Origin: Yuukianura sp. NJ FZ-2021
Taxonomy: Eukaryota
NCBI GenBank assembly: GCA_046563655.1
Contig: CM102288.1
Location: forward strand, 3,038,001-3,102,000
Length of the DNA: 64,000 nt
Direction of reading: 5' to 3'
The translations under genes and the position numbers were made by a program. Shown here one piece after another: positions 1-49,445 of this stretch (its first letter is position 1; each line of letters begins with the position of its first letter). The notes beneath the pieces are model-generated. The model did no database searches and was not told the origin of the DNA. It saw only the letters and a list, made by a program, of their open reading frames with translations.

Positions 1-52
1 GTCACGACCGTAACATTAAAAACATTATGTCTTTCAACTTTTCGTCGCTCAC

Positions 53-3000
53 CGGTCCTATATTGAAGGGCGAATTGCCATCTCTAATAAGCTCAGGCGG
101 AATGGAATCACTAATTCCTGGAACTAAATCCTTGCTTGCACTCGTCTTATAGTTTATGAGGGTATCACGGTCATAAACTATTCTACCCTTCTTGACTGGT
201 TCTCCTGATTCATCACTCTCCATATCTCCTACAAAAAGATATCCATTAATCGTAACATATTTAATTAACATCTGTGTATAAAGTAATAAAATATAACAAG
301 TTTTCACTAACCTTCATGCAATTCACCTTCTTCTATGTCGTCGTCTCCCATTCCTTCGTCAATCTCGTTTCCGCCATTGGTAAAAATAGGTTCAATTTGA
401 GCAGAATCAACGGCCGTAATCTTCAACTCCTCCAGTCCTTTTTCCACTTTGCTAATTTCATCTTCCGTTTTCAGTTCTGAGTTGGTTGGAGGAGGTCGGA
501 TCTCTTCTGTCTTAACGACAGGGACTTCTGGGACAGGCACTGATGGTTCAGTTTCACTGTCAATGGAAATAGGAGAAGGCTCTCCGGACTGCTCACTAAC
601 AACCTCTGGAATCTTTTCTGGAGTACGCTCAATGTATTTCTCAATTGGTTCTGGAGAAATTGAAGCCATTGAAAGATCCTGGAAAAACAAAAAACAAAAC
701 TAAAAACTCTTCCTCCACTTTTCTCAAAAACTGCTTTTTTTTTCAAAATTCTCTTACCAAAAACTGATCTCCTCTCCCACCACTCTGTGGCGTGGATACA
801 ACATTGTCTGTATTGTTCATTTCCTCTTCAGTCGTTATCGATAGGAGTGAAGTTTCTTCGGCCTGTTTACTCACTGCCGCCTCGTGACCAAGGTCAGAGG
901 TGACAATGGGGGGCTGTAGAGGCTCAGTCTCAGCTTCAAGGTCAGGGACGGAGCCCCCTTGGGGTTCACCTCCAATCGGCTGCTGTTCCTTTGGAAGTTG
1001 TGACGGAAGACTCGTCGATGTGTCCAGTTTCTCTGGTTCACCCATGGTGGTGGGTTCTTGGGAAATATTGGTAGGTGGAACTTGGGGGTGGGTGAAGGCA
1101 GGCGGGGCAGAGGCGGCGACAGTCACTGGTGTCTCCAAGGCAACAGTTGCAATAGCGGGAGTTTTTGGATGTAACGGTGCTGGAGGATGTCCAGTCACTG
1201 TGTGGGCGTCAGGGGTGCTATGCGATCGACCTACGAAAAGAACAAAAAACAAACATTAGTATTCATGAAGCTTAGCAAATTCGTAGTTTCGACGTTTCTT
1301 CAAAAACGTTTTCAAAATTCCTAAAATCAGTTCCTCCAGTCGCTCAATTTCAAAAATCCCACACAAGTTATCAATTCTTAACAAAAACACTTTTAACTTT
1401 CCACAAAAAAACTTTACCTTTGCCCCACTTATCTCTAGGCCTTCCCCTAGCATGAGGCATTTCGTTATTCCTCGAAACTCTCAAAATTTTAAAAACTCCA
1501 CTTCACAGTTACTTTTTACACCAAAAACCGCTACTCTAAAACCCAAAACTTTACTTCAAAAAATTTCAAATTCAAAACCGAAAAACTATTTTTTGAGCAA
1601 TCAAAATTCAAAGTGCGACGTCTTCTGAATCATGCTTTCCCTTTTGAATCTTATTTTTAGCCCCCTCTTCCTCTTCTCTATTTTTATCCTTAACCAAATC
1701 CATCCAAGAATTCAAAGCACTCCGTTCAAAATACACCACTGACTAAAAAACTAAAACCGAAAAGATGCAAGTAGTGGGATATTCCCCGAAAAAAAACTTT
1801 TCAAAAAAAGTTCTTACTAACCCTGATTATTCCAAACAGCATAACACTTTTTGAATCATTTCAAAAAACTCTAAAATTTCGTCTCCTCCAGTACTTTTAA
1901 ATATGTCTCACCCCTCTTCTCCTTTCCACTCTTCTGACCCATGATTAGTACTTGTACTTGCAAGCAGGTTTCAAAAAAATTAAAAAGTTATAATAAAAAC
2001 TAACCGGAACCACAAAAACCTCACTTCCTTATACACCACCACTCAATTGTCAAAGTCGATAACTGTAATTAATTAGTACTACGCTTTTCCCATTGACTAA
2101 AAGTTAAAAGTTGCTAAAGTTAAACGTTAGGCCACTTTTTAACAACCTAGTCTTAACTTTCTTTTTAATTAAAAGTAAGAGATTAATGGAAATATTAAGC
2201 ACCGGCAGTTTCTAATCTTCAACTAACTACTGCAATGTGCTTCACTGCTAATCCTCACTTCTCATCCATCAAGTATCCAAGTATCCTCATTGCATATTGG
2301 ATTAAAATGGCATGTGAGATGATCAGACAATGGACATGGACCATCCCAGGCTCTCGTGGGACACAAGATAACCTTATGATCACCACCTTGTACCACCCAT
2401 TCACAGATACGATTTGGACATCCATTGGCACAAGAGTCTCTTACCAATCTGGTCCAACCAAATAAATGTGCAGCTAGATCTCCTCTCTGCCCGTGGCCAT
2501 ATGACTCCTCACATCAAAATCCTATTTCCACATGTACATTGTAACAAAACAGGTCGGGGGAACTTTAAACCAGAAATTGCAGCAGAGCCAAATGCGTTAT
2601 TGCATAATGTGACATTTGGGATGCGGCAAGACGTCGTGGCCAACCAATGAGGGACTTTGAGGGATATGGGAGGCTACAGACTTACTTAAGCTGTGGTCAA
2701 TTCGCGATTAGCAGCAGCCTTTGGCCGGTCATAACTTCCTTATACTCAACATTCCTACTCTTAACGCGTCAAGGACGATTAACTTTCTTATTTACACAAA
2801 AACCGTAACCAAATGCTTCTGCGGAACCATTCTTCTAGTACTTGGTTTTTGTTTTTCAAAAAACCAAAAACAAACTAACCGTTAAAGATTAAACTTATGG
2901 ATTTTGGATTATGACTCATGCAGAAAGCAGAACTGACCGGCAAAATTCTAAAATTAGGAGAAATGTGACTCACTTGAAGTATCATCAGCAGCAGCAGTAA

Positions 3001-4540
3001 TCCGTTGAAAGAAATCTGATTTGGCTTTGTTTTTGCCTTGACCATCAGCTGGAGGAGCCACAGGGGCAACTGACTGTGGTTCATCATGAATCATCGCCGG
3101 TTGACTTTGACCGAAAGCCGGAGGGACTCCATCGTAAGCGTTTTGGTCATCATGTCCACCCTGTCCACCACCATGCATATTTATGTCTTCTGGAAGGCTA
3201 ACCGGCTCTGCTGTTGGTTGAGGAGAGGATGAAGGAGCACGGTCGGAACCAGCATTTGCATCAATCACGGCTTTACCTAAAGTCACAAATTAATTTAAAT
3301 TGTAGATTATTGAAATTATAGAATTATAGATTATAGATTATTGAAATTATAAAGTCATAGTCGGTATAGATTATACATTTCTGAAATTATAAAGTCATAG
3401 ATTGACAATGAACGTTATTAGATCTTCCAGGCGTAGAACTTTTACCTGTGGCGGGGTCAGTTATGAGCAGGATTCTCTTTTTCTTAGGGACGGGAAGTTC
3501 TCGTGGTTGTTCTTGTGCCGGCATGGAAGCATGCGTCACTAACCCTCCAGGGATCACGGCCGGTTGCATCAAAACACTCTGTGCTGGAGCAGGAGTCAAT
3601 TGAGGCTGATGTCCTTGAACTGCCACGGGATGGGCTGCATGTGACTGCTGAGTTGGTTGCTGCTGCACAGGCATTGCCGCTGGAACTCCGGCTCTCATAT
3701 AGGCCACGGCTGGCACTGGTTGTGCATGAGAAGGATGTGGTGGATAAAATGCCGGTTGGCCATGATGCATAGGATTCTGCGGCTGCTGTGATGCATTCTA
3801 ACATTAAAATTAAGTTGTGAATTAAATTAAAATTACAAACAATGGATCAAAAATGAAGGCAATTCAAAATTGCCTTCAAATTATCAAATTCAAAAGTGAA
3901 AGTGAAGTTTTTATAATTACCTGGTAGTAGTTAACTGCACTGGCATAGGCAGCAGCATTATAAGCATTTATCTGTTGCTGGGCCTGCGCATAGAGGTGCT
4001 GTTGCTGTTGAGGAGTAACATATTGTTGGCCTTGTGGATACTGCGGATTGTACGGAGTAGCAGGATAGGCTGCTGGATATCGAATCATTTGCCCTGGTGG
4101 TCCAGCACTTTGAATGATGTACGGCATTTGCTGTGGAAAAATGTAGCCAGAAGCAGCAGCCTGCTGCAAGTTCTGCGCTCGAATGGTCACATTTGTTCCA
4201 GGCTGATGCTGTGCTGCTTGGTTCTGAGTTGGTTGTTGTTGCTGATTTGGTTGATGAGTCGGATGTGGATGTCGTTGATGGTTGCCTGTACTTTGTCCAC
4301 CAGGTTGTCGCGGATAGTTTCCTCCACGGTTTCCACCGCTGCTGTATCTCTGCGGCTGCTGCATTCCGTGGGGTTGATCTCCCTGTAAACAACAATAAAG
4401 CAAAGTAAACGTTTACATATCTCTACAAATCCAGTGACAGATTTAGGTTCTTAGATTTAAGTTAATTATAAATCATAATGAAGCTGAATTACTAAATTTA
4501 CCTCCATTTGGGAGTGCGAGAGATAGTAGTCGCTATTCAT
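53..4540 (-). CDS. eIF4G: Eukaryotic translation initiation factor 4G, N-terminal portion (gene continues beyond the left edge)
   Basis: Spliced ORF from ATG 4540 (MNSDYYLSHSQME). Exons ~4540-4502, 4382-3921, ~3798-3446, 3276-~2969, ~1230-757, 678-312, 228-53, all with GT-AG boundaries. Q/P-rich N-terminus; KKKRILLITDPATG resembles the eIF4G PABP-binding segment; YDRDTLI (155-175) fits the YxxxxL-phi eIF4E-binding motif. Homologous to the MIF4G-containing gene at 10273-14766. Confidence 0.9.
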
Positions 4541-8814: not shown

Positions 8815-10200
8815 AATTTTGTCTTCGGTCAATTGAATTTGCAAATTTTCTTGGTACCCAGTTATTACCACGAGGCTCAATAGTTCAGGAAAAACGAGGC
8901 GTGAGAATTGAAAATTGTAATGGATTGATAACTCACAGTGTTGGTGGATAGTGGATATTAACTTTTTCGGCATTTCATCCACGGCTGGATATGCAGTGGA
9001 AGAAATGGAGGAAATGGATGAATTAGGGGCGGAGCTTTGCCCGCGGGGTTTTAATTAATTAAAATAGAAAAGGCTTAAACAATTCAAAATACCGTACAAA
9101 AACGAAGGAAATATCGTTTTTGTATGGCTTTTAAATGAATAATTAATTTTAACGATAAAAGAAACTCTTTTTGCTTTTATTTTGTAATTTTAAATTTGAA
9201 TTTTTTCTTGGTCTTTCGTCTCATCGATTCCTCGTCCAGGTTTTCAAGCATCTTTCGCTCTGTGTAGAATGATCGGTTTCGTTTGAATTGTGACTGGAGG
9301 TCGATTTCCTCCTGGAGGTTGCGGTGGAATTTGAAATGGACCTCGCATAGGTTCCCAGCCTGGTCCTCCCATAGCTCGCATTCGAGACCGCGGAGGCTGC
9401 AATGACAAAAGAACATTGCCAAAAATTCAATTTCTTCTTCAATTTTTTTCACTTGCCCGTCGTATGTTGTAAGACGAATTGCCATCTCTAATAAGCTCAG
9501 GAGGAATGGAATCAAGAATTCTTTTATCTAACTTGCATGCACTCGTCTTGTAGTTTATGAGTGTGTCACGGTCATAAACTATTCGCTTCTTGACTGGTTC
9601 TGGTTCTCCGGATTCATCACTCTCCATATCTCCTACAAAAAGATATCCATTAATGTAACATATTTAATTAAATAACATACTTATATAATAATAAAATACC
9701 AACTATAAAAAAAGCGGTTTTGCTCACCTTCATCATAGCATTCATCGTCTTCCATATCTTCATAGCCCATTCCGTCGTCAATCTCATTTCCGCCATTGGT
9801 AAAAAAACGTTCAATTTGAGCACATTGAGCAGACAGTTTCATTTTGGCCGTAATCTTCAAGTTCAACTCCTCCAGTTCTTTTTCCACTTTGCTAATTTCA
9901 TCTTCCGTTTTCAGTTCTGAGTTGGTTGGAGGAGGTCGGATCTCTTCTGTCTTCACGAATGGGACTTCTGGGACAGGCACTGATGGTTCAGTTTCACTCT
10001 CATTGGAAATAGGAGAAGGCTCTCCGGACTGGGCACTAACAACCTCTGGAATCTTTTCTGGAGTACGCTCAATGTATTTCTCAATTGGTTCTGGAGAAAT
10101 TGAAGCCATTGAAAGATCCTGGAATCAAAAAATAAAAATAAAATAATAACCTCATTCTCCAATTCAAATTTAAAATTCGAAATTTTCACTCTTACCAAAA
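8815..10200 (-). pseudogene. Partial eIF4G duplicate (third unit): eIF4E-binding exons plus a pre-MIF4G exon with a stop; pseudogene or truncated 4E-binding protein
   Basis: ~10118-9728 and 9632-9457 are close copies of eIF4G exons 678-312 and 228-53 (YDRDTLI retained at 9556-9576). After a putative GC-AG intron (9456-9397) comes PPRSRMR...IILHRAKDA*KPG, with TGA at 9246-9244 in place of the conserved W of the eIF4G AWKP motif. A frameshifted remnant IEPRGNNWVPRK...PKTK lies at ~8815-8885. Confidence 0.8.
8936..9170 (+). mobile_element. Truncated copy of the hAT-type MITE found intact at 45016-45414
   Basis: Begins CAGTGTTGGTGGATA and shares CATTTCATCCACGGCTGGATATnCAGTGGAAGAAATGGAnGAAATGGATGAAT...GGGGCGGAGCTTTGCCCGC with ~45045-45120. 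No right TIR seen; right boundary approximate. Confidence 0.8.
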
Positions 10201-10272
10201 ACAAATCATTATCCAATCTTATCCTTTATTTATCTTATTCTTCTTCTAGTTAATTTTTCATAAGGTTAAGGT

Positions 10273-13200
10273 TTAAATGTTTACTTCAGTTGGAAGACGA
10301 TCGGCTCCTTGAGTCTTTTTATAAAGCCCTTGCACCACTGCTTCTGAAAATCTATGTTTCAGTTTCTCCAGCACTTTTGAAACAAGATTTGTCCAAGTAT
10401 CGCCAAGGTCCTCTTCGATTCCTTCGCCCAACCGGATCAACCAGCCCAAGTCTTCTTCGTCCACAAACACTTCCGTTAAGCACGTTGCCAAGTAGGACGT
10501 TGCCTATAAAAACAAATCAAAATCAAAACTTTCTTCGACACAATTTAGAAATTTTACAAACTGAACTTACGAGTGGAGCATCGATTTCAACATCAGGAAG
10601 TAGCAACAGGATTCCGTCTTTGTCTCTGTCTTTTAGTGACTGGATTACCTGCCACAAAAGTATTTCATTAGATTTTTGAAAAGTTCGAAAAAACTTATTT
10701 TTAGAAAACTTTGAATTACTTGAGCTTTGGTTATTTTGTCAGCTTTAATTAAACATTTAATGAGGCCTCCAGCAGTCTTTTCATCATCTTCCTTGCTCAT
10801 ATCGCAGACTCGTGTGCAGAGCTCATTTACAAAGTCCAGTCGTCGATCTCCTACAAAAACAGAAAAAGAAAAGTTTGAAAAAACACTTTTCCAAAAGATT
10901 TTTTTTTTAAACTCGAAATAGTACCTGGAAATCTCTTCTCTATCCAATCAAAGTCAACTTTCTTGACACTGCGAAACTCTTCAAAGATTTGCTTCACAGC
11001 GTCCTTGGGATCAAAATCTTTGATTTGTTCTGGCGGTTGTTGAGGAGTTGGTGGCGGTGTTTTTCTCGTCGTCATCGTCAATGGTGGAGGTACCCTTGGA
11101 CTTCCAGAATTACTGTCTTTCGTTGGAGTTTGTGGTCTTGAAGACTCCCGACTACTGTGTGATGATGGGCTTTTCGTTTGCGGAAGTGCTTGAACAATCG
11201 CATCACGGGAAGGAGGTGGCAGTGGACCATCAGAAGACTCGCGACCAGCACTGAAACGAGGTGGGAGTGAACTGCGTGGCGGATATCCTGATCCACCTCC
11301 TCTTGCAGATTGCATTCCCCAAGGACCACCGCCAGGAGCCAACTTCGGCAAGTCTCCACTACTGTCAGGCCCAGTCTTCTTGGGAGCAGCGAAGAGAGAG
11401 TACTTTTTCGCTGAAACGCTCATCCATTCGTCAGTTTTCTTTGGAAGTGGGGGTCCACCTATTGGTCCACGAGGAGACGAAGCTGGAGGAAGACTCATCA
11501 ATTGCTTCTTCTCTTCTTGTTCCTCTCGAATTATCGCACGTCGAACTTCCTCTTTTGTCTTTGGCGCAGTTAAATCTCTCCTGGGTACCCAGCTACCGGC
11601 ACGAAGCTCAACCACTTCCTGTAATAATCAAAAATTCATGTTTCGAAGTTAAAAATTTAAAGAAAACGAGTAATTTCCGACTAAACTAACGAGTAAGGCA
11701 AATCTGATTCTGGAAGAATAGGTCCTGTCGTCACTGAGGGCTCTGAGTTTAGTAAACGTATTGTTCATGAAGTTTGGATCTGGCATCCATTTTGATGGTG
11801 GAGTTCTCTTGATCTTCATGGTTTCTATCACTTGAGCAATATTCTCTTCCAGCCTCTGTCCAACAGTTGTCAGGAGCTTGCATAGACACTCCACGCTCTC
11901 CTCGTCGCCACTAGAAATTAACATATTGACACACTCGATCATGATCTTTGGAGTCAACATTTGAAGTTTAAATAGTTCTCCGATAAATCGCACATTCGCT
12001 GTGCTACGCCATTTAGCGAGGAATCTGGAAAAAGAAACGAACAGCATTCAAAAATTTCAGAAGGGGTAGGCGAACGTCGTTCATTGTTTAAATCACCTTT
12101 TCTCTTCAATTTCTAATTTGATAGCTAATTTTTGGTTGTATTGGACTTCTGTTTCCAATTTTTCCTGTAGTATTTCCACTTCCTCTTCGATTGAGCTTTT
12201 TTCCTGAAATTCCTTACGACATTGGTCCGTAATCTTCTTTCGGAAAATCTTGGAATTGGCAACGGGCGCTTTACTATGAACTCTGTGAACCTGAAAACCA
12301 ATTTGGATAAATGAATCAAAAGTGAACTTGCAAACGTAGAGTAACATTTCGCAAAACAACAATTTACAATTTTTGCGTATATAGCCGAGAAGGACGGATC
12401 GTTCATGACTTGTTCAAAAACCACAGAAATTACAGCACCAATTCTTCCAGCCGTTACTTCTTCAGCCTCTGCCCTCTCCGTGTCCGCATCACTTCGATTC
12501 TCAGGTTTCTTGACCTCCTCTTCTAGCATAAGAAACTTTTCCAGCTAAACAAAAAAGTCTAATTGAATTCTGAGTTTAAAACAGAAGAGCACACAAAGAA
12601 AAGAACCATCTTAAAAAACACTCAAAAATGAAAGCTACTTACCAACCTGTCCAAGTTCGCTAGATTCTTCGCTAATTTGTTCAGAATTCGCTGAGCACTC
12701 TTCTTCATCTCCTACTCAGACAAAACAAAAATTTTAAGTGACTCCATACAAAATAACAAAAATAAAGATTTTTAACAACCTCGATGAGAATCTGCTCTTC
12801 TTTTATCGTGTCATAAATATTGATTCCCCTCTTCCAACGATCCTCTGCCTCGTGTAAAGTGTCCGGTCCTCTCTGAATTGTCACAGATCGATTCCCCTCT
12901 TGACGATCAGGTAGAACTTAAAATTATTTATTATAGAATTATAGATTATTATGTGTGTATATCTTGCTCTGGTGTAGAACTTTTACCTGTGGCGGTTGAA
13001 GGTTCATCATCAGCAACAGTAAGCCGTTGAAAGAAGTCTGCTTTGGCTTTGTTTTTGCCTTGACCATCAGCTGGAGGAGCCATTGGGGATGCTGTCCCAG
13101 GGGTAGAACTTTTACCTGTGGCGGTTGAAGGTTCATCAGCAGCAACAGTAATCCGTTGAAAAAAGTCTGCTTTGGCTTTGTTTTTGCCTTGACCATCAGC

Positions 13201-14766
13201 TGGAGGAGCCATTGGGGATCTTGTCCCAGGGGTAGAACTTTTACCTGGGGCGGTTGAAGGTTCATCAGCAGCAACAGTAATCCGTTGAAAAAAGTCTGCT
13301 TTGGCTTTGTTTTTGCCTTGACCATCAGCTGGAGGAGGCATTGGGGATCTTGTCCCAGGGGTAGAACTTTTACCTGGGGCGGTTGAAGGTTCATCAGCAA
13401 TAACAGTAATCCTTTGAAAGAAGTCTGCTTTGGCTTTGTTTTTGCCTTGACCATCAGCTGGAGGAGCCATTGGGGATCTTGTCCCAGGGGTAGAACTTTT
13501 ACCTGTGGCGGTTGAAGGTTCATCAGCAGCAACAGTAATCCTTTGAAAGAAGTTTGATTTGTCTTTGTTTTTGCCTTGATTATCAAGTAGACGAGCCATG
13601 GTGGATCTTATTCCAGGCGTGGAACTTCGACCTGTGGCTGTTGAAGGTTCATCTGGAACAGCAGTAATTCGTTGAAAGACGTCTGATTTGGCTTTGTTTT
13701 TGCCTTGACCATCAGTTGGAGGAGCCACAGGGGCAACTGACTGCGGTTTATCATGAATCATCGCCGGTTGATTTTGACCGAAAGCCGGAGGGACTCCATC
13801 GTAAGCGTTTTGGTCATCATGCCCACCCTGTCCACCACCATGAGCATTTATGTCTTCTGGAAGCTTAACCGGCTCGGCCGTTGGTTGAGGAGAACCTGAA
13901 GGAGCATGCTCGGAACCAGCCAATGGTGTCACGGCTTTACCTACAGTCATAAATTAATTTCAATTACACCTTACTGAAATAATAGAATTATATTTTCTTT
14001 AAAAGTTTTTATTCCCTGAAGAAGGACATAGATCATTGTCCGAAAGCTTGGATCTTTTTGAATAAAGATTTAAAAGTTAAAACATCAACTGGCCATATTC
14101 CGATCTAAAATGCAACTTAATAGAATTATATGTTATTGAAATTATACACAGATTATTATATCTTCTTCAAGCGTAGTACTTTTACCTGTGTAAGGGTCAA
14201 ATATGGTAAGGAGTCTCTTTGTCTTAGGGACGGGAGGTTTAACTGCACTCGCACAGGCAGCAGCATTATAAGCATTTATCTGTTGCTGGGCCTGGGCATA
14301 GAGATGCTGTTGCTGTTGAGGAGTAACATATTGTTGGCCCTGTTGATACTGCAGATTGTACAAAGCAGCAGGATAGGCTGCTGGATATCGAATCATTTGC
14401 CCTGGTGGTCCAGCACTTTGAATGATGTACGGCATTTGCTGTGGAAAAATGTAGCCAGAAGCAGCAGCCTGCTGCAAGTTCTGCGCTCTAATGGTCACAT
14501 TGGTTCCAGGAGGCTGATGCTGTGCTGCTTGGTTCTGAGTTGGTTGTTGTTGCTGAGTTTGTTGATGAGTCGGATGTGGATGGCGCTGATGGTTGCCAGC
14601 ACTTTGTCCACCCGGATGTTGATCTTCCTGTAAGTAATAAAAAATCAATGTCAAGTTTTTAGAAATTCAGTGACACAGAGTTAGATTCTTAGATTTAAGT
14701 TAATTATGAATCATGATCAAGCTAAATTACTAAATTTACCTCCATTTGCTGTTTGCTTTTCGTCAT
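10273..14766 (-). CDS. Divergent eIF4G paralogue: PABP-binding-like motif, 6x43-aa repeat, MIF4G and MA3; no eIF4E-binding exon, no W2 domain
   Basis: Twelve exons join in frame without stops: 14766-14740, 14627-14186, 13940-12987, 12916-12780, 12711-12643, 12544-12368, 12291-~12097, ~12024-11691, 11618-~10926, 10850-~10721, 10648-10571, 10503-10273. MIF4G motifs RILNKL, FSAIYAKI, FRKKITDQCRKEF, NVRFIGELFKLQML, DEESVECLCKLLTTVG, RIRFALLEVVELRAGSWVPRR, then an MA3-like helical domain. Confidence 0.88.
12970..13725 (-). repeat. Coding tandem repeat, six copies of a 129-bp (43-aa) unit
   Basis: GT(A/G)GAAC recurs at 12974, 13103, 13232, 13361, 13490, 13619 (exact 129 spacing). Unit encodes PPADGQGKNKAKADFFQRITVAADEPSTATGKSSTPGTRSPMA. 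Confidence 0.97.
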
Positions 14767-42414: not shown

Positions 42415-45400
42415 ATGATGCAAATGCCTGGAGGAAGAGCGCTACGGCCAGGTACGTTGAAAAGGTCCTTTTTCATTGATTCATTTGGTGTATAAATTAT
42501 AACATTATCAGTGGAAAGAATGAACAGGATGGATGTTCAAAATTAAGTTCTGGACCATTACTCTTTAGGATTTCAACCCCAACAGCATATGACGGCGTTT
42601 CGTACGAAGAGAGACGTAGATCAACATGTCGAACTCATTTGTAGACAGGACCTGTCTGAGAAAGAAGTAAGTTCAATTAAGCAGACGATAGAGTGAGATA
42701 AGACATGTGGTTCTATGTTGTTAATTGAATCGGATTTTATCTTTACAGAGAAGTCTGAGATACTACAGTATTGCGAGGGCATACGCAAGTGTACGAGAGT
42801 TCCCATTGGCCAAGCGGTTCTTGCAGTCATACATTGAAGCTAATCCCACTTCTCCTGGACTAGCGGATGCCTACAAAGTCATGGGAGATGTATGTTTACC
42901 AAAACGTTTGAATGACTTAAGCAGATTCATTTTATTTAAATGTTATTGAATTCATTAGATCTTGACGGATACGCGGGAACATGAGGCTGCCTTAGAATCT
43001 TACAAAAAGAGTTATGACATTACTCCAACTCGCATAACCCTCAATCGAAGTAAGTTGTAGAAACTAACATCCAGAATGGGCGAGCGTTTGTGTCTTACTT
43101 GCTTTTTTTGTCGTTTTTTAGTCTGTGATCTCTTAGCGAACGGATTTGGTGAAAAGGAAACGCCTGAAGCCAGAAATGCATGGTTTACAAAACAAAAGAC
43201 TGCTTCCAGTCAAGCCGTTACGGAGTCCAGCATGCGCCTAGCTCAACAACGGCCAGAGCCACTTATGGGCTACACTTTTCCTGTGTCTCAAGGATCCTCT
43301 CCAGGCCAGTACTTTCATACAATGTCTCCAACCGTGCCGGTCAACTTCAACGGCCAACAAGATGGTAGCCAGCAACAAAGGACCACCCCTCAACGGCCTG
43401 GCAGTGCAAGAGGTCAAGGTGACATCACTCCGCGTAACCTTCTGAGTCAACTACAGCCGCAGGTCAATGGAACACAAGAGGTAGAGGCCCGCTTGAAACA
43501 GTTGGAGCTTAAGGTTGCTGAACAACATGAAAATGGGATGGAACAGGTCAATCAGCAACTGGAAAAATGTCTAGAAAGGATGAACCAGCAATTTGAAAAA
43601 GTTATGGAAATGGCGCAGCAAGAGAAAGGAAAGATTGGCAGTCAGCAGAAGTTGAATGGTCAAGGCGACAGCGGTACTCATAAGTTGGAACAATCACAGA
43701 AACTTGTTGAAAACAAGTTGCTGGAAATCCAAAAGGAAATGATTCAAAAGTTACAACAAGTTCAAGTTTCAATTGAAACGAAGATTGATTGCGGCTTTTA
43801 TAAGATGAAGAAAGAAATGAATGAAGAATTAGGCCAAGCACAGAAAAATACAGCCTCAGCTATGGAAAGCATGCAGAAGTCTGTTGAAAAAAATCTTCAG
43901 GAGTTCATCAAAGCTGAGCAGGTAACACAGAACATAACTTTTAGTCAACAAGTAATTGAATTTCGATTATCAATTGGTAAAGTTTATGGCGGTTTTGAGT
44001 TAAATGAGTAATGTCGTGTATTTTTATCTAATCTTAGTGTAAGATGTTCAAGGACTACGCTTATCCTCTCCTGGATCAAATCGACGCCAAACAAGCATCA
44101 GCATCCAAGGTCGAACCCAAACCTGCGCCTGTGCCAGTTGCCCAGTCGAAACTTCCAGAACAACCGAAAGCGGCTTTATCCGATTCCAAGCTAAGACTTA
44201 CCGAGCCGAAGCTGAAACTGGAAGAATCAAAGCCGAAACTTGCTGAGCAAACCAAGCAGCCCGAGCCAGTGAAACCTCTAACAGAAAAAGTTGTCAAAGA
44301 GGCTGAAAATCTAAGCAAGATGAAAATTGCTGAAACGAAAGCGACTCCTGCTCCGTCTGTTCCGGCGTTTACTTTCCGATTCAACACTCCTGCTACAACT
44401 GAGGGTGGTTTTCATGCTTTGGCTAAAGCAGCAGAAAGTAATACTGGATTTGGCTTATTCAATCCGAGTAGCAGCACACCCAAGACGTCTGATATTTTCT
44501 CACAACCAATTGGTCCAATCTTTGGAGTGAAAACTCCAACCTCCTTTACTGAAAACAACAAAACTTCTGAAGCTGATCACGACGAGTCTGCTGAAGAATT
44601 TGAGCCTACTGCTGAATTTACTCCGGTGATTCCACTTCCTCCGCTGGTTGAAGTCGTCAAAGGAGATGAAAATGAAAATGTGGTTTACGAAGTGAGAGCC
44701 AAATTGCTTCGACTTCATGAAGATGAAAAAGAAGGGAAGAAGGAGTGGAAGGAAAGAGGACTCGGGAACATCAAGATTCTGCAAGACAAAGATCGACCAA
44801 CCAAAGTACGAGTTGTGATGTGGAGAGAACAAATTCACAAGTTGGCTTGCAATCATCGCATTCTCAAGGACACGAAGATTGAATTTTTCAATAACTCGGA
44901 CAAATCGCTGATGTGGGTGGCAATTGATTTTGCTGATGGAGAGCAATCGGAGGAAATCTTTGTCTGCAAATTTGGAAAGCCGGAACAAGTAAGTAGAATT
45001 TTTAAAAGATTTAACCAGTGTTGCTGGATATCCACTTTTTCGACATTTCATCCACGGCTGGATATCCAGTGGAAGAAATGGACGAAATGGATGAATCCAA
45101 AGGGGCGGAGCTTTGCCCGCAGGGTATGCATAATTTGATATTAAAGGTCGGAAAGAAATCAAAAACAATGCAAAAATAAGCGGAAATCGTGCTAAAATAT
45201 GTTCTAATAGCAAAACCAATTAAGCAAAAGCGGTTTAAATACTTAATTAAAGTATTTACTATTATTTAATTTAAATTTATTTGAAATTGGAGCTGATTTC
45301 CTCAACTCAGCTGATTTCGTCCATCCACCGTCCAGTACGACCCCATTTCATCCACTGGATATCCAGTGGAAGTGGCAATTAAGCCACTGGACGTTTAAGC

Positions 45401-48400
45401 ATCCAGCAACACTGGATTTAACCAAACCAAAACAAGGTTTTTAAGAAATTTTAAGTACAGTTTTAAGTCTTATTCCAACATTGTCTTTATTTTAGTGCAA
45501 AACCTTCAAGGAACACGTCGATCGTCTCGTGGAGCTTATCAACAACTCGCCTGACGAAGAGGCCAGTCCAGTAGCAGCTTCAAAAATTCCAGAACAGCCA
45601 AAACCGAAGGAAGTATCTGTGCCGCTGAAACCGTTGTCTGAACTTTTCAAAAAGCCAGAGGGAACTTGGACTTGCAATGCTTGTTATGTCCAAAACAAGC
45701 CTGATGTACTGAAGTGTGCGAGTTGCGAAACGCTGAAACCAGGAGTTGACCCCAGCAGCATTAAAAACGACGAAGCGATCTCATCCAGCAAAGCTGCTCC
45801 AGCGCCGTTTACATTTGGATTCACTACACCACAAGACGGAGGGTTTCAAAGTTTGGCCAAAAGTGCTGCAGGAGGTGGCTTTACATTCGGTGGCACGGGA
45901 ACCAACATTTTCTCAAAACCTATCACTCCAATGTTTGGCACTCCTGCGTCAACGACATCAGCTGATACTAGCAAAACTGATGCTGATCATGATGAGTCTG
46001 CTGAAGAATTTGAGCCTACTGCGGAATTTACTCCAGTGATTCCACTTCCGCCGCTTGTTGAAGTCGTCAAAGGAGATGAAAATGAAAATGTTGTTTACGA
46101 AGTGAGAGCCAAATTGCTTCGACTGCATGAAGATGAAAAAGAAGGGAAGAAGGAGTGGAAGGAAAGAGGACTTGGGAACATCAAGATTCTGCAAGACAAA
46201 GATCGACCAACCAAAGTCCGAGTTGTGATGTGGAGAGAGCAAATCCACAAGTTGGCCTGCAATCATCGCATTCTCAAGGATACGAAGATAGACTTTTTCA
46301 ATAACTCGGACAAATCGCTAATGTGGGTAGCAATTGATTTTGCTGATGGAGAGCAGTCTGAGGAAATCTTTGTCTGCAAATTTGGAAAGCCAGAACAGGT
46401 AAGTCAAAAGCAGCAATACGAGAGTTTTGAAATCAATTCTTAGTAACTTTCTAAAAACCAAAACGTAAAGCTAAATTGTACACATTTCTTCATTTTAGTG
46501 CAAAACGTTCAAGGACCATATCGATCGTCTCGTGGAGCTAATCAACAACTCGCCAGTCGAGGAAACTACTCCAGTTGCAGCTTCGAAACTTCCAGAATCA
46601 AAATCTGTGGAAGCAACGAAACCAGTGCCAGTTCAGACCCCGTTGTCTGAACTTTTCAAAAAACCTGAAGGAACTTGGACTTGCAATGCTTGTTATGTCC
46701 AAAACAAGCCTGATGAGCTGAAATGTGTAAGTTGCGAAACAGTGAAACCAGGCGTTGATCCCAGCAGCATCAAAAAAGTTGAAGCGATCTCAACGACCAC
46801 AACATCAGCAGCACCATTTGCGCCTCAATTTACCTTTGGATTCAACACACCAACTGATGGCGGCCTAGGTGGTTTTCAAGCGTTAGCTAAGAAAGCAGAA
46901 GGAGGAACTGGATTTACTTTTGGTGCTAGTACTGGATCAAATATTTTTTCGAAACCAATCACTCCGATATTCGGTACTCCGACGACTGCACCAGAAACTA
47001 GTAAAGGAGATGGTGACCATGATGAGTCCGCTGAAGAATTTGTGCCTACTGCTGAATTTACGCCAGTAATTCCACTTCCGCCGCTTGTCGAAGTCGTCAA
47101 AGGAGATGAAAATGAAAATACAGTTTACGAAGTTAGAGCAAAATTGCTTCGACTGCATGAAGATGAAAAAGACGGGAAGAAGGAATGGAAGGAAAGAGGA
47201 CTTGGGAACATCAAGATTCTGCAAGACAAAGATCGACCAACCAAAGTTCGAGTTGTGATGTGGAGAGAGCAAATTCACAAGTTGGCTTGTAATCATCGTA
47301 TTCTCAAGGATACGAAGATAGACTTTTTCAATAATTCGGACAAATCGCTGATGTGGGTGGCAATTGATTTTGCTGATGGAGAGCAATCTGAAGAAATTTT
47401 TGTCTGCAAGTTTGGAAAACCGGAGCAAGTGAGTTGAATTTTTAAAAAATTAACAAAAGAAAAAGTTTTTTCTAAGTAAAATTTTAAGACTTCACTTATT
47501 TGCGAAATTATCTGATTTCAGTGCAAAACGTTCAAAGAACACATTGAGCGCCTGGTGGCTCTAATCAACAACTCACCAGAAGAACCCAGTCCGGTGGCAG
47601 CATCAAAAGTTCCAGAACCAAAACTGGCGGAAGTATCAGAGTTAGTGAAGCCGTTGTCCGAACTATTCAAAAAACCAGAAGGAACATGGACTTGCGACGC
47701 CTGTTATGTCCAAAACAAGCCTGATGTGCTGAAGTGCGCAAGTTGCGAAACGCTGAAACCTGGAGTCGATCCCAGCAGCATCAAAAAGGACGAAGCGATC
47801 TCATCCAGCAAAGCTGCTCCACCGGTACCTCAGTTTTCTTTTGGATTCAATCCTGCCAACGTCGGTGGTTCTCAATCTCAACCGTCATTGGCTCTCGCTC
47901 CAAGTGCTTCTGGTTTCACATTTGGTGGTACTGGCAGTACTGGGGCCAATATTTTCTCAAAACCTGCCCCACCGGTGTTTGGCTTTCCACCAGCAGTGGA
48001 TACTGGCGTTGCTACTAAAAAAGAATCTCCAATCACTTCTCAAGTTCCAGAAAAGGAGGAGTGTTCCACAAGCTGCACTGGATGTATTGGATGTGATCCG
48101 GACAAGTTTGATTTTAGCAAATTGGAAAATCGGAAAGTAGCGGAAGACTATCCTGAACAAAAGATGACACCGGAAGAATTTAGGAAGCATAATGAACAGA
48201 AGAGCAAGGACAAACTGGCAGCATTTTCATTCTCTTTCCCAAATGCTGCTGCTGCTGGAAAAGCACCAGAATCTAAAAGTACTGGAAGTACTACTGTTCC
48301 TACTGCTGCTCCACCAGTACCAGTATTTTCTGGTTTTGGAGGCACCAATTCCTTTGCTGCTCCGACACTTCCTGTGTTCCAAGCGCCCGTGTTTGGAGCT

Positions 48401-49445
48401 GTACCTGCCCCTTCCTTTGCGTTTGGATCTTCTGGCTCATCATTCTCAACTCCACCGACTGCCGCAGCAACATCAACTCCAACTGCCTCTGCTTTACCGC
48501 AGCCTCCAGTACCGGATTTCAGCTCGAAGCCCTTAAGTACCCCACCGAGGACACAGGCCCCTTACAACGTTGAGGATTCTTACAACGAGTATGATGAGTA
48601 CGATGATGATGATCCGGTTTTCGAAGGGGTCGGGAAATTGCGCTATCGTAAACACGGAGAATCTGGTAATTAAAAGTTTAACAAGTTAATTAGTAAGTAT
48701 TTTGAAAACTTACAAGCTTTAAAAATAATTTCGAAATCTTATTTTCAGAAATGCGGGAACTTGGATTGGGATTGGTTTGCTTATCTTATGATTCGGATAT
48801 TTACTGTAATCGGTTCACATATTTAGAAGAAACTGAGGATACTCCGGCAGTTGATCATGTTATTTGTGCTGATACGCAACTGAATGTGAGTCAACTTTTC
48901 TCAAAAAAAAATGATTTTTTTTTTCAAAAACTGATATATTTTTTCAAAAAGTGATATATTTTTTTTTTTCAATTTCTGTGTTTTTTCAATTGAAGGCGTC
49001 GGGTGATAAGGAATTCTATTGGACGGCGTTGATGGAATCCGATTCTGGACATATGGAACGAATGGAACTTGAAGTGACCTTTGACAACAATGAAATCGCT
49101 GCGGATTTCATGGACCGTTGGTCTGATGTAAGTTTGAATTCAAAATTACAAAAACAGTTTTTTCACTTTTCAAAAGTGGGGTTTTTACACTTTTTCAAAA
49201 GTTTTCAAAAGTGGGGTTTTTACACTTTTTCAAAAGTGGGGTTTTCAAACTTTTTTAAAATGTGTTTTTTACACTTTTTTTTTTTCAAAAAAACTTACAG
49301 CGTGAGTGGTTGAAGACGAAGTTTGTTTGTTTTCGTTTTGCACCGGATCTTAAACTTTGAATTTTGGTCTGTTTGTTTTTAGAGTACAGACATGGCATCT
49401 CAGGCAAACATGACTGAAGCTTATTTGGAGGAAGAGGGAGAGTAA
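42415..49445 (+). CDS. Nup358: RanBP2/Nup358-like nucleoporin, shortened: short TPR, coiled coil, three near-identical RanBD1, three RanBP2-type zinc fingers, FG repeats, degenerate C-terminal RanBD
   Basis: N-terminus FRTKRDVDQHV...RSLRYYSIARAY; RanBD FTPVIPLPPLVEVVKGDENE...RAKLLR...WKERGLGNIKIL...MWREQIHKLACNH x3; ZnF WTC(N/D)ACYVQN...C..CET x3; FG/FxFG linkers; CTGCIGC motif; last exon 49383-49445. Confidence 0.88.
45016..45414. mobile_element. Non-autonomous hAT-superfamily MITE (399 bp) in a Nup358-like intron
   Basis: Perfect 14-bp TIRs CAGTGTTGCTGGAT / ATCCAGCAACACTG; perfect 8-bp target-site duplication GATTTAAC (45008-45015 and 45415-45422); subterminal repeats of (C)TGGATATCCA; no transposase ORF. 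Confidence 0.93.
49160..49275. repeat. Intronic short tandem repeat (~25-bp TTTTCAAAAGTGGGGTTTTTACAC-type unit, about four degenerate copies)
   Basis: Repeated TTTTCAAAAGTGGGGTTTT blocks visible in the last intron of the Nup358-like gene. Confidence 0.8.

What the first reader, a model, noticed from the sequence alone, without database searches (positions are those of the whole stretch)
9244..14766. Complementary 'split' eIF4G pair: a 4E-blind scaffold followed by a 4E-binding-only unit
Seen: the 10273-14766 paralogue is an open 12-exon ORF with a PABP-type motif, MIF4G and MA3. It lacks the three exons that in the canonical copy lead to and contain YDRDTLI, and I found no YxxxxL-phi before its MIF4G. 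About 160 bp past its stop, on the same strand, lie copies of two of those exons. From ATG 10109 they splice (10109-9728, 9632-9457, 9396-9244) into a ~236-aa ORF with an intact YDRDTLI that ends just before MIF4G would begin. Established: eIF4G forms lacking the 4E site (DAP5/eIF4G2, protease-cleaved eIF4G) support eIF4E-independent initiation, and proteins with only YxxxxL-phi act as 4E-BP-type competitors. Inference: the pair could be a co-regulated switch that sequesters eIF4E while supplying a cap-independent scaffold.
Basis: partly seen in the sequence, partly recalled or inferred. Interest (0 to 1): 0.85.

Follow-up and report, generated by a model that had tools for sequence, protein, structure and literature searches.

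The report
Rearranged eIF4G copy, displaced eIF4E site
A springtail-like animal carries a scrambled extra copy of the translation scaffold eIF4G whose docking exons for the cap-binding protein now lie behind the gene, in frame, so they may form a new tail, a separate small protein or mere leftovers, and only RNA data can tell which.

Summary
On the minus strand, 14766-10273 is an intact 12-exon, 1155-aa eIF4G paralogue (P). It has a MIF4G domain and an MA3-like region but no YxxxxL-phi motif anywhere. 163 nt past its stop lie copies of canonical exons 6, 7 and 8, which give a 236-aa ORF containing YDRDTLI.

- P's homology to full-length orthologues ends exactly at ...LPTE, at GAA|GTAAAC (phase 0), three codons before its stop. 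The next acceptor (10119|10118) is also phase 0, so splicing would give one 1391-aa protein with the eIF4E module at the C-terminus.
- The short ORF's stop is TGA at a conserved Trp codon.
- Its second intron has a GC donor where the canonical copy has GT.
- The host looks like a springtail, a group in which operons are not expected.

Selection signals are mixed. Overall Ka/Ks is 0.62, with 12 short-unit-derived versus 4 canonical-derived residue changes. However, the 27-codon eIF4E module has 0 residue changes against 5 synonymous ones, and all 5 coding indels are in frame.

Best reading (0.4): one rearranged gene with a displaced, in-frame eIF4E-binding tail, possibly alternating with a 4E-blind form. 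Rivals: debris (0.33), a separate small gene (0.1). No transcript data exist for the junction.

The parts
10273..14766 (-). Paralogue P: 12 exons (14766-14740, 14627-14186, 13940-12987, 12916-12780, 12711-12643, 12544-12368, 12290-12097, 12024-11691, 11618-10925, 10850-10720, 10648-10571, 10503-10273), 1155 aa
   Evidence: Gene model with GT-AG at all 11 introns and an open frame. Intron positions match L001 at five junctions. One RNA contig of run X1 on 10924-11090 carries 9 further letters that equal the start of exon 10, so the junction 10925|10850 is spliced.
11691..12024 (-). Exon 8 of P, core of the MIF4G domain
   Evidence: Pfam MIF4G, E 1.1e-20, 74.7 bits.
12974..13727 (-). 129-bp (43-codon) tandem repeat, 5.8 copies, inside exon 3 of P. 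Each unit joins the tail of canonical exon 4 to the canonical exon 3/intron 3 junction
   Evidence: TRF: period 129, 92% matches. blastn to canonical 2974-3066 and 3421-3454. The frame is open through all copies.
10279..10284 (-). Candidate donor GTAAAC after codon GAA (phase 0), three codons before P's stop, at the exact end of homology to full-length orthologues
   Evidence: PWM score 3.9 bits; 3 of 17 true donors score lower, and 15 of 144 exonic GT decoys score as high or higher.
10119..10284 (-). 166-nt candidate intron, or alternatively P's 3' flank. It contains AATAAA at 10230-10225 followed by a T/GT-rich stretch. Its last ~95 nt are the tail of canonical exon 5 plus intron 5, with donor and acceptor intact
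9728..10118 (-). Copy of canonical exon 6 (ATG at 10109); acceptor in phase 0
   Evidence: 340 of 367 aligned bases identical to canonical 678-312. Three indels of 6, 15 and 3 nt, all in frame.
9457..9632 (-). Copy of canonical exon 7, with YDRDTLI (9576-9556) and the conserved downstream block DSIPPELIRDG (9513-9481)
   Evidence: 146 of 173 bases identical. Module: 0 of 27 residues changed, 5 of 81 bases changed.
9397..9456 (-). Intron with a GC donor (G|GCAAGT); the canonical copy has GT here
9244..9396 (-). Copy of canonical exon 8 up to TGA (9246-9244), which replaces a conserved Trp codon
9190..9243 (-). In-frame homologous remainder of exon 8 after the stop; the exon's natural donor is gone. 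AATAAA at 9181-9176 follows
1..4540 (-). Canonical eIF4G, exons 1-7 (4540-4502, 4382-3921, 3797-3446, 3276-2974, 1230-758, 678-312, 228-53). 724 aa open frame that runs off the window start

Best explanation
P and the downstream unit are one rearranged gene, not two. A complex DNA-level duplication of the canonical eIF4G copied the gene from inside exon 1 to the intron behind the MA3 exon. That copy lost its internal eIF4E-binding exons and its C-terminal domain, and a second piece of the same gene (tail of exon 5 to exon 8) was placed directly behind it. The retained donor after ...LPTE (10284) and the retained exon 6 acceptor (10119|10118) are both phase 0. Splicing them would give a 1391-aa scaffold in the order PABP-type block, six copies of a 43-residue repeat, MIF4G, MA3-like region, then the bipartite eIF4E-binding module at the C-terminus. 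This is the same domain order as Mextli. Use of the AATAAA at 10230 inside that 166-nt intron would instead give the 1155-aa 4E-blind form. Shown: the anatomy, the frame compatibility, an intact ORF and intact splice sites, constraint on the eIF4E module, and that P itself is spliced. Inferred: that the junction is used, that both forms exist, and that the tail binds eIF4E.
For: (1) P's alignment to full-length orthologues P0003 and P0007 stops at RLPTE, and those proteins run on for about 125 aa. No remnant of that domain is in the window (best tblastn E 1.7). (2) GAA|GTAAAC sits exactly there in phase 0 and the next acceptor is phase 0, giving an open 1391-codon frame. The chance of matching phase is about 1 in 3. 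(3) The donor resembles P's own donors (GTAAAT twice, GTAAAA twice) and 3 of 17 true donors score lower. (4) All 5 coding indels between the short unit and the canonical copy are multiples of three, against 1 of 6 in the adjoining introns (one-sided Fisher 0.013). At least 3 of the 5 are derived in the short unit when polarised with L001. (5) The eIF4E module has 0 of 27 residue changes with 5 synonymous base changes, against 30 of 153 elsewhere (p 0.009). A neutral branch would be expected to show about 4.8 replacements there, P(0) 0.008; this uses my rough share of replacement sites. (6) Ks to the canonical copy is alike for the short unit (0.153) and for P's N-terminal exons (0.170, 0.175), which fits a single event. 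(7) P is under selection: 0 stops where about 13 would be expected if neutral (rough), and an RNA contig is spliced at 10925|10850. (8) The unit is the last minus-strand feature before the convergent Rer1 gene, with AATAAA 63 nt after its stop. (9) Mextli shows that a MIF4G-like domain followed by C-terminal eIF4E-binding motifs exists as a known protein layout; the paper cites an earlier report that Mextli promotes translation (PMC4573856, passages read).
Against: The donor is weak: 3.9 bits, and 15 of 144 exonic GT decoys score as high or higher. A well-formed poly(A) signal (AATAAA at 10230 plus a T/GT-rich stretch) lies between P's stop and the acceptor. Outside the module the short unit evolves about neutrally. 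Pairwise Ka/Ks is 0.62, residue changes are 12 short-derived against 4 canonical-derived (12 ambiguous) of 175 sites, and the EEGELHEG block conserved in the canonical copy and L001 is lost. With outgroup-conserved positions only, the module test is weaker: 0 of 23 against 12 of 75, p 0.063; within exon 7 alone, 0 of 23 against 4 of 16, p 0.022. Part of the module was delimited using invariance that includes the short unit itself. One splice donor has changed from GT to GC, and a conserved Trp codon is now a stop. Gene conversion from the canonical copy could mimic constraint; about 90 nt of exon 6 are identical. Whether the canonical gene has an intron after the LPxE codon could not be checked, because that part lies outside the window and no genome is held.
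Confidence: 0.4

Rival explanations
1. Duplication debris. P ends at ...LPTEVNI* and is polyadenylated at the AATAAA at 10230. It acts as a 4E-blind, PABP-motif-bearing scaffold that is functionally like IFG-1 p130 or DAP5. The copied exons 6-8 behind it are an untranslated by-product of the same complex rearrangement. They are either decaying or were constrained only while they were still part of a fuller copy.
For: AATAAA plus a T/GT-rich stretch 40-70 nt after P's stop. Weak candidate donor. TGA at a conserved Trp, a GT-to-GC donor change and loss of the exon 8 donor. Short-unit branch near neutral overall: 12 against 4 derived changes, Ka/Ks 0.62. One stop in 255 codons is compatible with neutrality: about 2.6 expected, P(<=1) 0.26, rough. 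4E-site-less MIF4G paralogues occur in another springtail: Orchesella dallaii P0002 (on a contig of the same length as canonical P0007's, probably the same one) and P0009.
Against: 5 of 5 coding indels are in frame against 1 of 6 in introns (p 0.013). The eIF4E module has 0 of 27 replacements with 5 synonymous changes. Of the 12 splice-site dinucleotide bases of the three introns, the only change is the one that still allows GC-AG splicing. The junction with P is in frame.
Confidence: 0.33
2. The downstream unit is an independent gene, translated from ATG 10109 into a 236-aa eIF4E-binding protein that competes with eIF4G, co-regulated with a 4E-blind P.
For: Intact 236-codon ORF with both the canonical motif and the downstream conserved block, which starts 14 residues after the motif. 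Its own AATAAA lies 63 nt after the stop. The constraint signals listed above apply here too.
Against: The ATG is an inherited internal Met, 9 nt behind an inherited acceptor, and the outgroup L001 has no Met there. Only 163 nt, made up of old intron and exon tail, are available for a promoter. The best named relatives are springtails, where spliced-leader operons are not known (recalled). It is not a member of the 4E-BP1-3 family: Pfam eIF_4EBP 13.5 bits against a cutoff of 24. Acidic N-terminal blocks that are conserved in canonical eIF4G are decaying.
Confidence: 0.1
3. Assembly artefact. The order P then exons 6'-8' results from mis-joined contigs among near-identical eIF4G copies and repeats.
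For: The locus holds paralogous sequence at 83-94% identity, a 129-bp tandem array, and a dispersed repeat at 9000-9102.
Against: The short unit differs from the canonical copy by 27 of 367 and 27 of 173 exon bases and by five indels, so it is a distinct locus. The junction region carries recognisable intron 5 sequence contiguous with P's flank. No read-level test was possible.
Confidence: 0.05

Closest known systems
Canonical springtail-type eIF4G (window 4540-1; P0003; Orchesella P0007 and P0008; metagenome locus L001)
   Same: Same N-terminal PABP-type block, the KNKAKxDFFQRIT block, the MIF4G domain with identical intron positions, the MA3-like region, and an identical YDRDTLI / DSIPPELIRDG module.
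   Different: In P the module is not between the N-terminus and MIF4G but behind the gene. Canonical exons 3 (most of it) and 5 are gone, one block is amplified about sixfold, and the roughly 125-aa C-terminal domain is missing. MIF4G identity to others is about 8-10 points lower than L001's.
4E-independent eIF4G forms: C. elegans IFG-1 p130 (PMC3164730, passages read) and DAP5/eIF4G2/p97 (recalled; search listing only)
   Same: If P ends at its annotated stop, it is an eIF4G scaffold without an eIF4E site.
   Different: p130 comes from an internal promoter of the same gene and lacks the whole N-terminal part. DAP5 is an old separate gene that lacks the N-terminal third. P is a young duplicate (Ks 0.17) that keeps the N-terminal PABP-type block and loses the C-terminal domain instead.
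Mextli (PMC4573856, abstract and passages read)
   Same: Domain order: MIF4G-like domain first, then canonical plus non-canonical eIF4E-binding motifs at the C-terminus. The paper cites an earlier report that Mextli promotes translation.
   Different: Mextli has a KH domain and an unrelated origin. P has none in Pfam scans of its exons and derives from eIF4G itself by exon rearrangement.
Small eIF4E-binding proteins (4E-BP1-3, and yeast Caf20/p20 from search listings)
   Same: The 236-aa ORF would carry only a YxxxxL-phi motif plus a downstream conserved block and no scaffold domain.
   Different: No family membership (Pfam eIF_4EBP 13.5 bits against a cutoff of 24). It is derived from eIF4G exons. 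Independent expression is not shown.
Orchesella dallaii MIF4G-only paralogues P0002 and P0009
   Same: eIF4G-derived proteins without YxxxxL-phi in a springtail. P0002's contig has the same length as canonical P0007's and is probably the same contig.
   Different: They are predicted models only. P0002 has three or more MIF4G cores in one model. No displaced eIF4E module was seen in them.

Membership tests
eIF4G (canonical scaffold) | MIF4G (HEAT-1) domain | tested here: met
   Pfam PF02854, E 1.1e-20, 74.7 bits, cutoff 30.8. 60% identity to L001 over about 320 residues.
eIF4G (canonical scaffold) | YxxxxL-phi eIF4E-binding motif N-terminal to MIF4G | tested here: not met
   No match in 1155 aa. 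The motif lies only in the exons behind the stop (9576-9556).
eIF4G (canonical scaffold) | MA3 (HEAT-2) domain | tested here: inconclusive
   No Pfam hit on single exons. The region aligns to the stretch of P0003 and P0007 that scores 18.9 and 22.1 bits, below the 23.2 cutoff. The spliced protein could not be handed to Pfam.
eIF4G (canonical scaffold) | C-terminal domain after MA3 | tested here: not met
   Orthologues run on for about 125 aa after LPxE. P stops three codons later, and no remnant is in the window.
DAP5/eIF4G2-type 4E-independent factor | Orthology to the old eIF4G2 lineage; no N-terminal PABP/4E third; MIF4G, MA3 and W2 present | tested here: not met
   P is a recent duplicate of the local canonical gene (Ks 0.17; shared lineage-specific MIF4G insert). 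It keeps the N-terminal block and lacks the C-terminal domain.
4E-BP (small competitive binders) | Canonical YxxxxL-phi plus a non-canonical motif about 15-30 residues downstream | tested here: inconclusive
   YDRDTLI is present. The conserved block DSIPPELIRDG starts 14 residues after it. That this block contacts eIF4E is inferred from its position and conservation only.
4E-BP (small competitive binders) | Expressed as a free small protein; sequence membership in eIF_4EBP | tested here: not met
   Pfam eIF_4EBP E 0.068, 13.5 bits against a cutoff of 24. Expression could not be tested.
Mextli | MIF4G-like domain plus KH domain plus C-terminal 4E-binding motifs | tested here: not met
   No KH hit in any exon of P or the short unit. 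Only the domain order is alike.

The most novel reading that the evidence does not exclude
One gene with a built-in switch. Competition between polyadenylation at 10230 and splicing of the 166-nt intron would decide whether the paralogue is made as a 4E-blind scaffold or as a scaffold that holds eIF4E by a C-terminal tail, a permuted eIF4G. Cap dependence of a dedicated initiation factor would then be set by 3'-end processing rather than by proteolysis, an alternative promoter or 4E-BP competition.
Probability: 0.15. Interest if true: 0.75.

Novelty: new variant of a known kind. Interest (0 to 1): 0.45.

Why it matters
eIF4G's parts are always drawn in one order: PABP site, eIF4E site, MIF4G, MA3, C-terminal domain. 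It is not known how much that order matters. Here nature has taken a young copy apart. The eIF4E site has been removed from its place and set behind the gene in frame, a conserved N-terminal block has been amplified sixfold, and the C-terminal domain is lost, yet the 1155-codon frame is kept open and the gene is spliced. If the tail is used, it is a natural test of whether an eIF4G works with its cap anchor at the other end, as Mextli's layout suggests. If it is not used, the locus is a datable example (Ks about 0.15-0.17) of how a 4E-independent eIF4G form arises by exon loss. In either case the claim rests on one assembly and needs RNA data.

Tried and rejected
- Nematode-type operon with SL2 trans-splicing at the 10119 acceptor. 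This was my first idea, from the TTTCAG-like acceptors and the ~100-nt gap after AATAAA. I dropped it when the best named relatives proved to be springtails. The Rfam scan of the window found 0 families, so no SL RNA gene.
- RNA evidence. Only one run was offered (X1, contigs of a sediment metatranscriptome, share 0.06). Of 4 records laid, none lies on 9244-10503, so nothing can be said about the junction or the short unit.
- Whole genome. None is held, so the canonical gene's 3' half and its intron positions could not be read.
- Protein searches. Exon 6' against 1.84 billion representatives gave 1 hit, P0001, which is the exon of L001. Exon 7' against longer proteins: 17 candidates, none at E <= 0.01. 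The third protein search was not used, because a hit on junction-spanning fragments seemed unlikely.
- The metagenome scan gave a single locus (253 pattern matches, 1 confirmed), and it has the canonical exon order. No relative with a P-type arrangement was found.
- ESM Atlas on the MIF4G exon only confirmed MIF4G.
- Earlier scan notes: nothing for this genome or sequence. The hits by words were giant-virus eIF4G notes and are unrelated.
- Automatic exon chaining: one search found no path and one search found a wrong 8-exon path. Both were replaced by the hand-checked model.
- An old-paralogue origin for P's core was considered because P exon 4 and exon 8' are only about 55-65% alike (129 of 234 aligned bases). 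I rejected it as the main reading because P shares a lineage-specific MIF4G insert with L001. Fast evolution of P is the simpler account.
- Literature: searches found no eIF4G with a C-terminal eIF4E site or a split pair of this kind. These five searches are the only basis for saying it is not in print.
Full report
WHAT IS THERE. The window is eukaryotic, with short introns. Its first 4540 bases (minus strand) hold exons 1-7 of a canonical eIF4G: 724 aa, open frame, running off the window start. YDRDTLI lies in exon 7. Further up the same strand, 14766-10273 is a paralogue, P. It has 12 exons, all 11 introns are GT-AG, and it encodes 1155 aa. Exon 8 gives a clear MIF4G hit (E 1.1e-20). The last three exons align to the region of orthologues that gives sub-threshold MA3 hits. 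P has no YxxxxL-phi motif anywhere. A contig of the only available RNA run (X1) lies on 10924-11090 with 2 mismatches in 167. It carries 9 further letters equal to the start of exon 10, so P, or a very close allele, is transcribed and spliced. 163 nt after P's stop come copies of canonical exons 6, 7 and 8, preceded by intron 5 and about 15 nt of the exon 5 tail. The region is 83.4% identical over 719 columns; exon 6 matches at 340 of 367 bases and exon 7 at 146 of 173.

- The second intron of the short unit has a GC donor (G|GCAAGT) where the canonical copy has GT.
- The stop at 9246-9244 is TGA at a Trp codon conserved in all six relatives examined. In-frame homology continues about 17 codons beyond it to the place where the exon's donor used to be.
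- The ATG at 10109 is an internal Met of the canonical exon, and the outgroup lacks it.
- P is truncated at its 3' end. Its alignment with full-length orthologues P0003 and P0007 ends at RLPTE, and they continue for about 125 aa. No trace of that domain is in the window.
- At exactly that point the DNA reads GAA|GTAAAC in phase 0, and the next acceptor downstream, the inherited exon 6 acceptor at 10119|10118, is also phase 0. Removing this 166-nt interval gives one open frame of 1391 codons, with the eIF4E-binding exons as a C-terminal tail.

ORGANISM AND RELATIVES. The best named matches of the MIF4G exon are springtails: Orchesella dallaii, O. cincta and Folsomia candida, at 49-52% identity. 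In that search 512 proteins had E <= 0.001 among 703 candidates, and 120 were listed. A 3617-bp metagenome contig (L001) from a related species carries exons 5, 6, 7, 8 and the MIF4G exons in the canonical order, with the same intron positions. P shares with L001 an insertion in MIF4G that the other relatives lack. P is 60% identical to L001 but 42-53% to the others, always lower than L001's own values. P is therefore a young, fast-evolving duplicate. Ks to the canonical copy is 0.170 and 0.175 for P's N-terminal exons and 0.153 for the short unit, which fits a single event. P is a mosaic:
- Its homology with the canonical copy starts inside exon 1.
- Most of exon 3 is deleted.
- A 129-bp unit, built from the exon 4 tail plus the exon 3/intron 3 junction, is repeated 5.8 times in frame.
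- Exons 5-7 and the 5' part of exon 8 are absent.
The genes between the two copies (Rer1 on the other strand and an unassigned minus-strand gene) are not duplicated. This was therefore a complex DNA-level rearrangement. It was not retroposition, because introns are kept, and it was not a simple tandem duplication.

IS THE DOWNSTREAM UNIT ALIVE? The evidence points both ways.

Signs of relaxation:
- Pairwise Ka/Ks to the canonical copy is 0.62.
- Of 175 aligned residues, 12 changes are derived in the short unit, 4 in the canonical copy and 12 are ambiguous. This puts the short branch near neutrality.
- An acidic block conserved between the canonical copy and L001 is lost.
- There is a nonsense codon at a conserved Trp and a GC donor.

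Signs of constraint:
- All 5 coding indels (6, 15, 3, 3 and 3 nt) are in frame, against 1 of 6 in the adjoining introns (one-sided Fisher 0.013).
- The 27 codons of the eIF4E module (the YDRDTLI block plus DSIPPELIRDG, which starts 14 residues later) have 0 replacements and 5 synonymous differences, against 30 replacements in 153 codons elsewhere (p 0.009).
- With outgroup-conserved positions only, the contrast is 0 of 23 against 12 of 75 (p 0.063), or 0 of 23 against 4 of 16 within exon 7 (p 0.022).

Part of the module was delimited with help of the short unit's own conservation, and gene conversion could mimic constraint, so these figures are suggestive rather than decisive. The synonymous differences do argue against very recent conversion of the module.

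HOW IT MOST LIKELY WORKS. I commit, at 0.4, to a single gene whose eIF4E-binding exons were displaced to its 3' end and are joined in frame to exon 12. The candidate donor is of the type P uses elsewhere, but it is weak: 3.9 bits, 3 of 17 true donors score lower, and 15 of 144 exonic decoys score as high or higher. The 166-nt interval also contains AATAAA at 10230 followed by a T/GT-rich stretch. A 1155-aa 4E-blind form ending there is therefore equally easy to imagine, and the two may alternate. A scaffold with MIF4G first and eIF4E-binding motifs last is a known layout: Mextli has a MIF4G-like domain, a KH domain and C-terminal canonical and non-canonical motifs, and the paper cites a report that it promotes translation (PMC4573856, passages read). 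Metazoan eIF4G is described as binding eIF4E through canonical and non-canonical motifs (PMC6061780, abstract in the search listing). This is why I read the conserved downstream block as the second contact, but that is an inference.

RIVALS.
- Debris behind a 4E-blind P (0.33). It explains the stop, the GC donor, the poly(A) signal and the near-neutral rate, but not the in-frame indels or the untouched module.
It needs a promoter in 163 nt of old intron, in an animal group without known operons (recalled).
- Mis-assembly (0.05). It could not be tested.

COMPARISON WITH WHAT IS KNOWN. 4E-independent eIF4G forms are established. C. elegans IFG-1 p130 comes from an internal promoter and lacks the N-terminal eIF4E region (PMC3164730, passages read). 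DAP5/p97 is the other classical example (recalled). P is not a member of either: it is a recent duplicate that keeps the N-terminal block and loses the C-terminal domain. Another springtail has predicted MIF4G-only paralogues without the motif. One of them lies on a contig of the same length as its canonical gene's, probably the same contig, so loss of the eIF4E site in eIF4G duplicates may recur in this group. Five literature searches found no eIF4G with a relocated eIF4E site and no split pair.

VERDICT. The finding is a real and unusual rearranged eIF4G paralogue. The 'complementary pair' description is accurate as anatomy, but the 'co-regulated switch of two genes' is the least supported of the live readings. 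It is a new variant of a known kind. Interest is moderate (0.45), because everything beyond the anatomy hangs on one untested splice junction in one assembly.

Noticed in passing
window 12974-13727 (-): In P, a 43-codon unit is repeated 5.8 times in frame. It contains the block KNKAKxDFFQRIT, which is single-copy and conserved in the canonical gene, L001-type relatives and P0003. It also contains an exonised copy of the canonical exon 3/intron 3 donor, so each unit carries a CAG|GTAAAA donor look-alike. This may be avidity for an unknown partner, or a source of alternative splicing.
   Followed up: partly
window 550-1083 (-), canonical exons 5-6: One RNA contig of run X1 (about 95% alike) joins 1083 to 550, skipping 532 nt. 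These are 325 nt of exon 5, the 79-nt intron 5 and 128 nt of exon 6, i.e. 453 exonic nt or 151 codons, in frame. The ends are not GT-AG. It could be an allele with a deletion, an odd splice or a chimeric contig.
   Followed up: partly
P0002, P0007, P0009 (Orchesella dallaii proteins): P0002 is a 1439-aa model with at least three MIF4G cores and no YxxxxL-phi. Its contig has the same length as canonical P0007's, probably the same contig. P0009 (452 aa) also lacks the motif. Springtails may repeatedly spawn 4E-site-less eIF4G copies.
   Followed up: partly
window 14740-14766 versus 4502-4540 (-), and 15485 onward (+): Homology between P and the canonical copy begins only at the last ~9 nt of exon 1 (CAAATGGAG|GT). 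P therefore has a different 5' end and first codons. It lies head to head with a leucine-rich-repeat gene, possibly sharing a bidirectional promoter.
   Followed up: no
window 43061-48670 (+): Four consecutive units of about 1 kb, each with a RanBP-type zinc finger and/or a RanBP1 domain (Pfam E 1e-9 to 1e-31). This looks like a RanBP2/Nup358-like gene with tandemly repeated modules.
   Followed up: no
window 9000-9102 and 45073-45176; also 8961-9023: A dispersed repeat (76% over 106 nt) lies directly behind the short unit. An X1 RNA contig matches 63 nt of it, with unrelated sequence on both sides. It may mark the end of the inserted segment.
   Followed up: no
window 1231-2973 (-): Canonical intron 4 is 1.7 kb long, where the other introns are 60-170 nt. 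It holds several overlapping ORFs of 60-90 codons on both strands around 2200-2650, possibly an inserted element.
   Followed up: no
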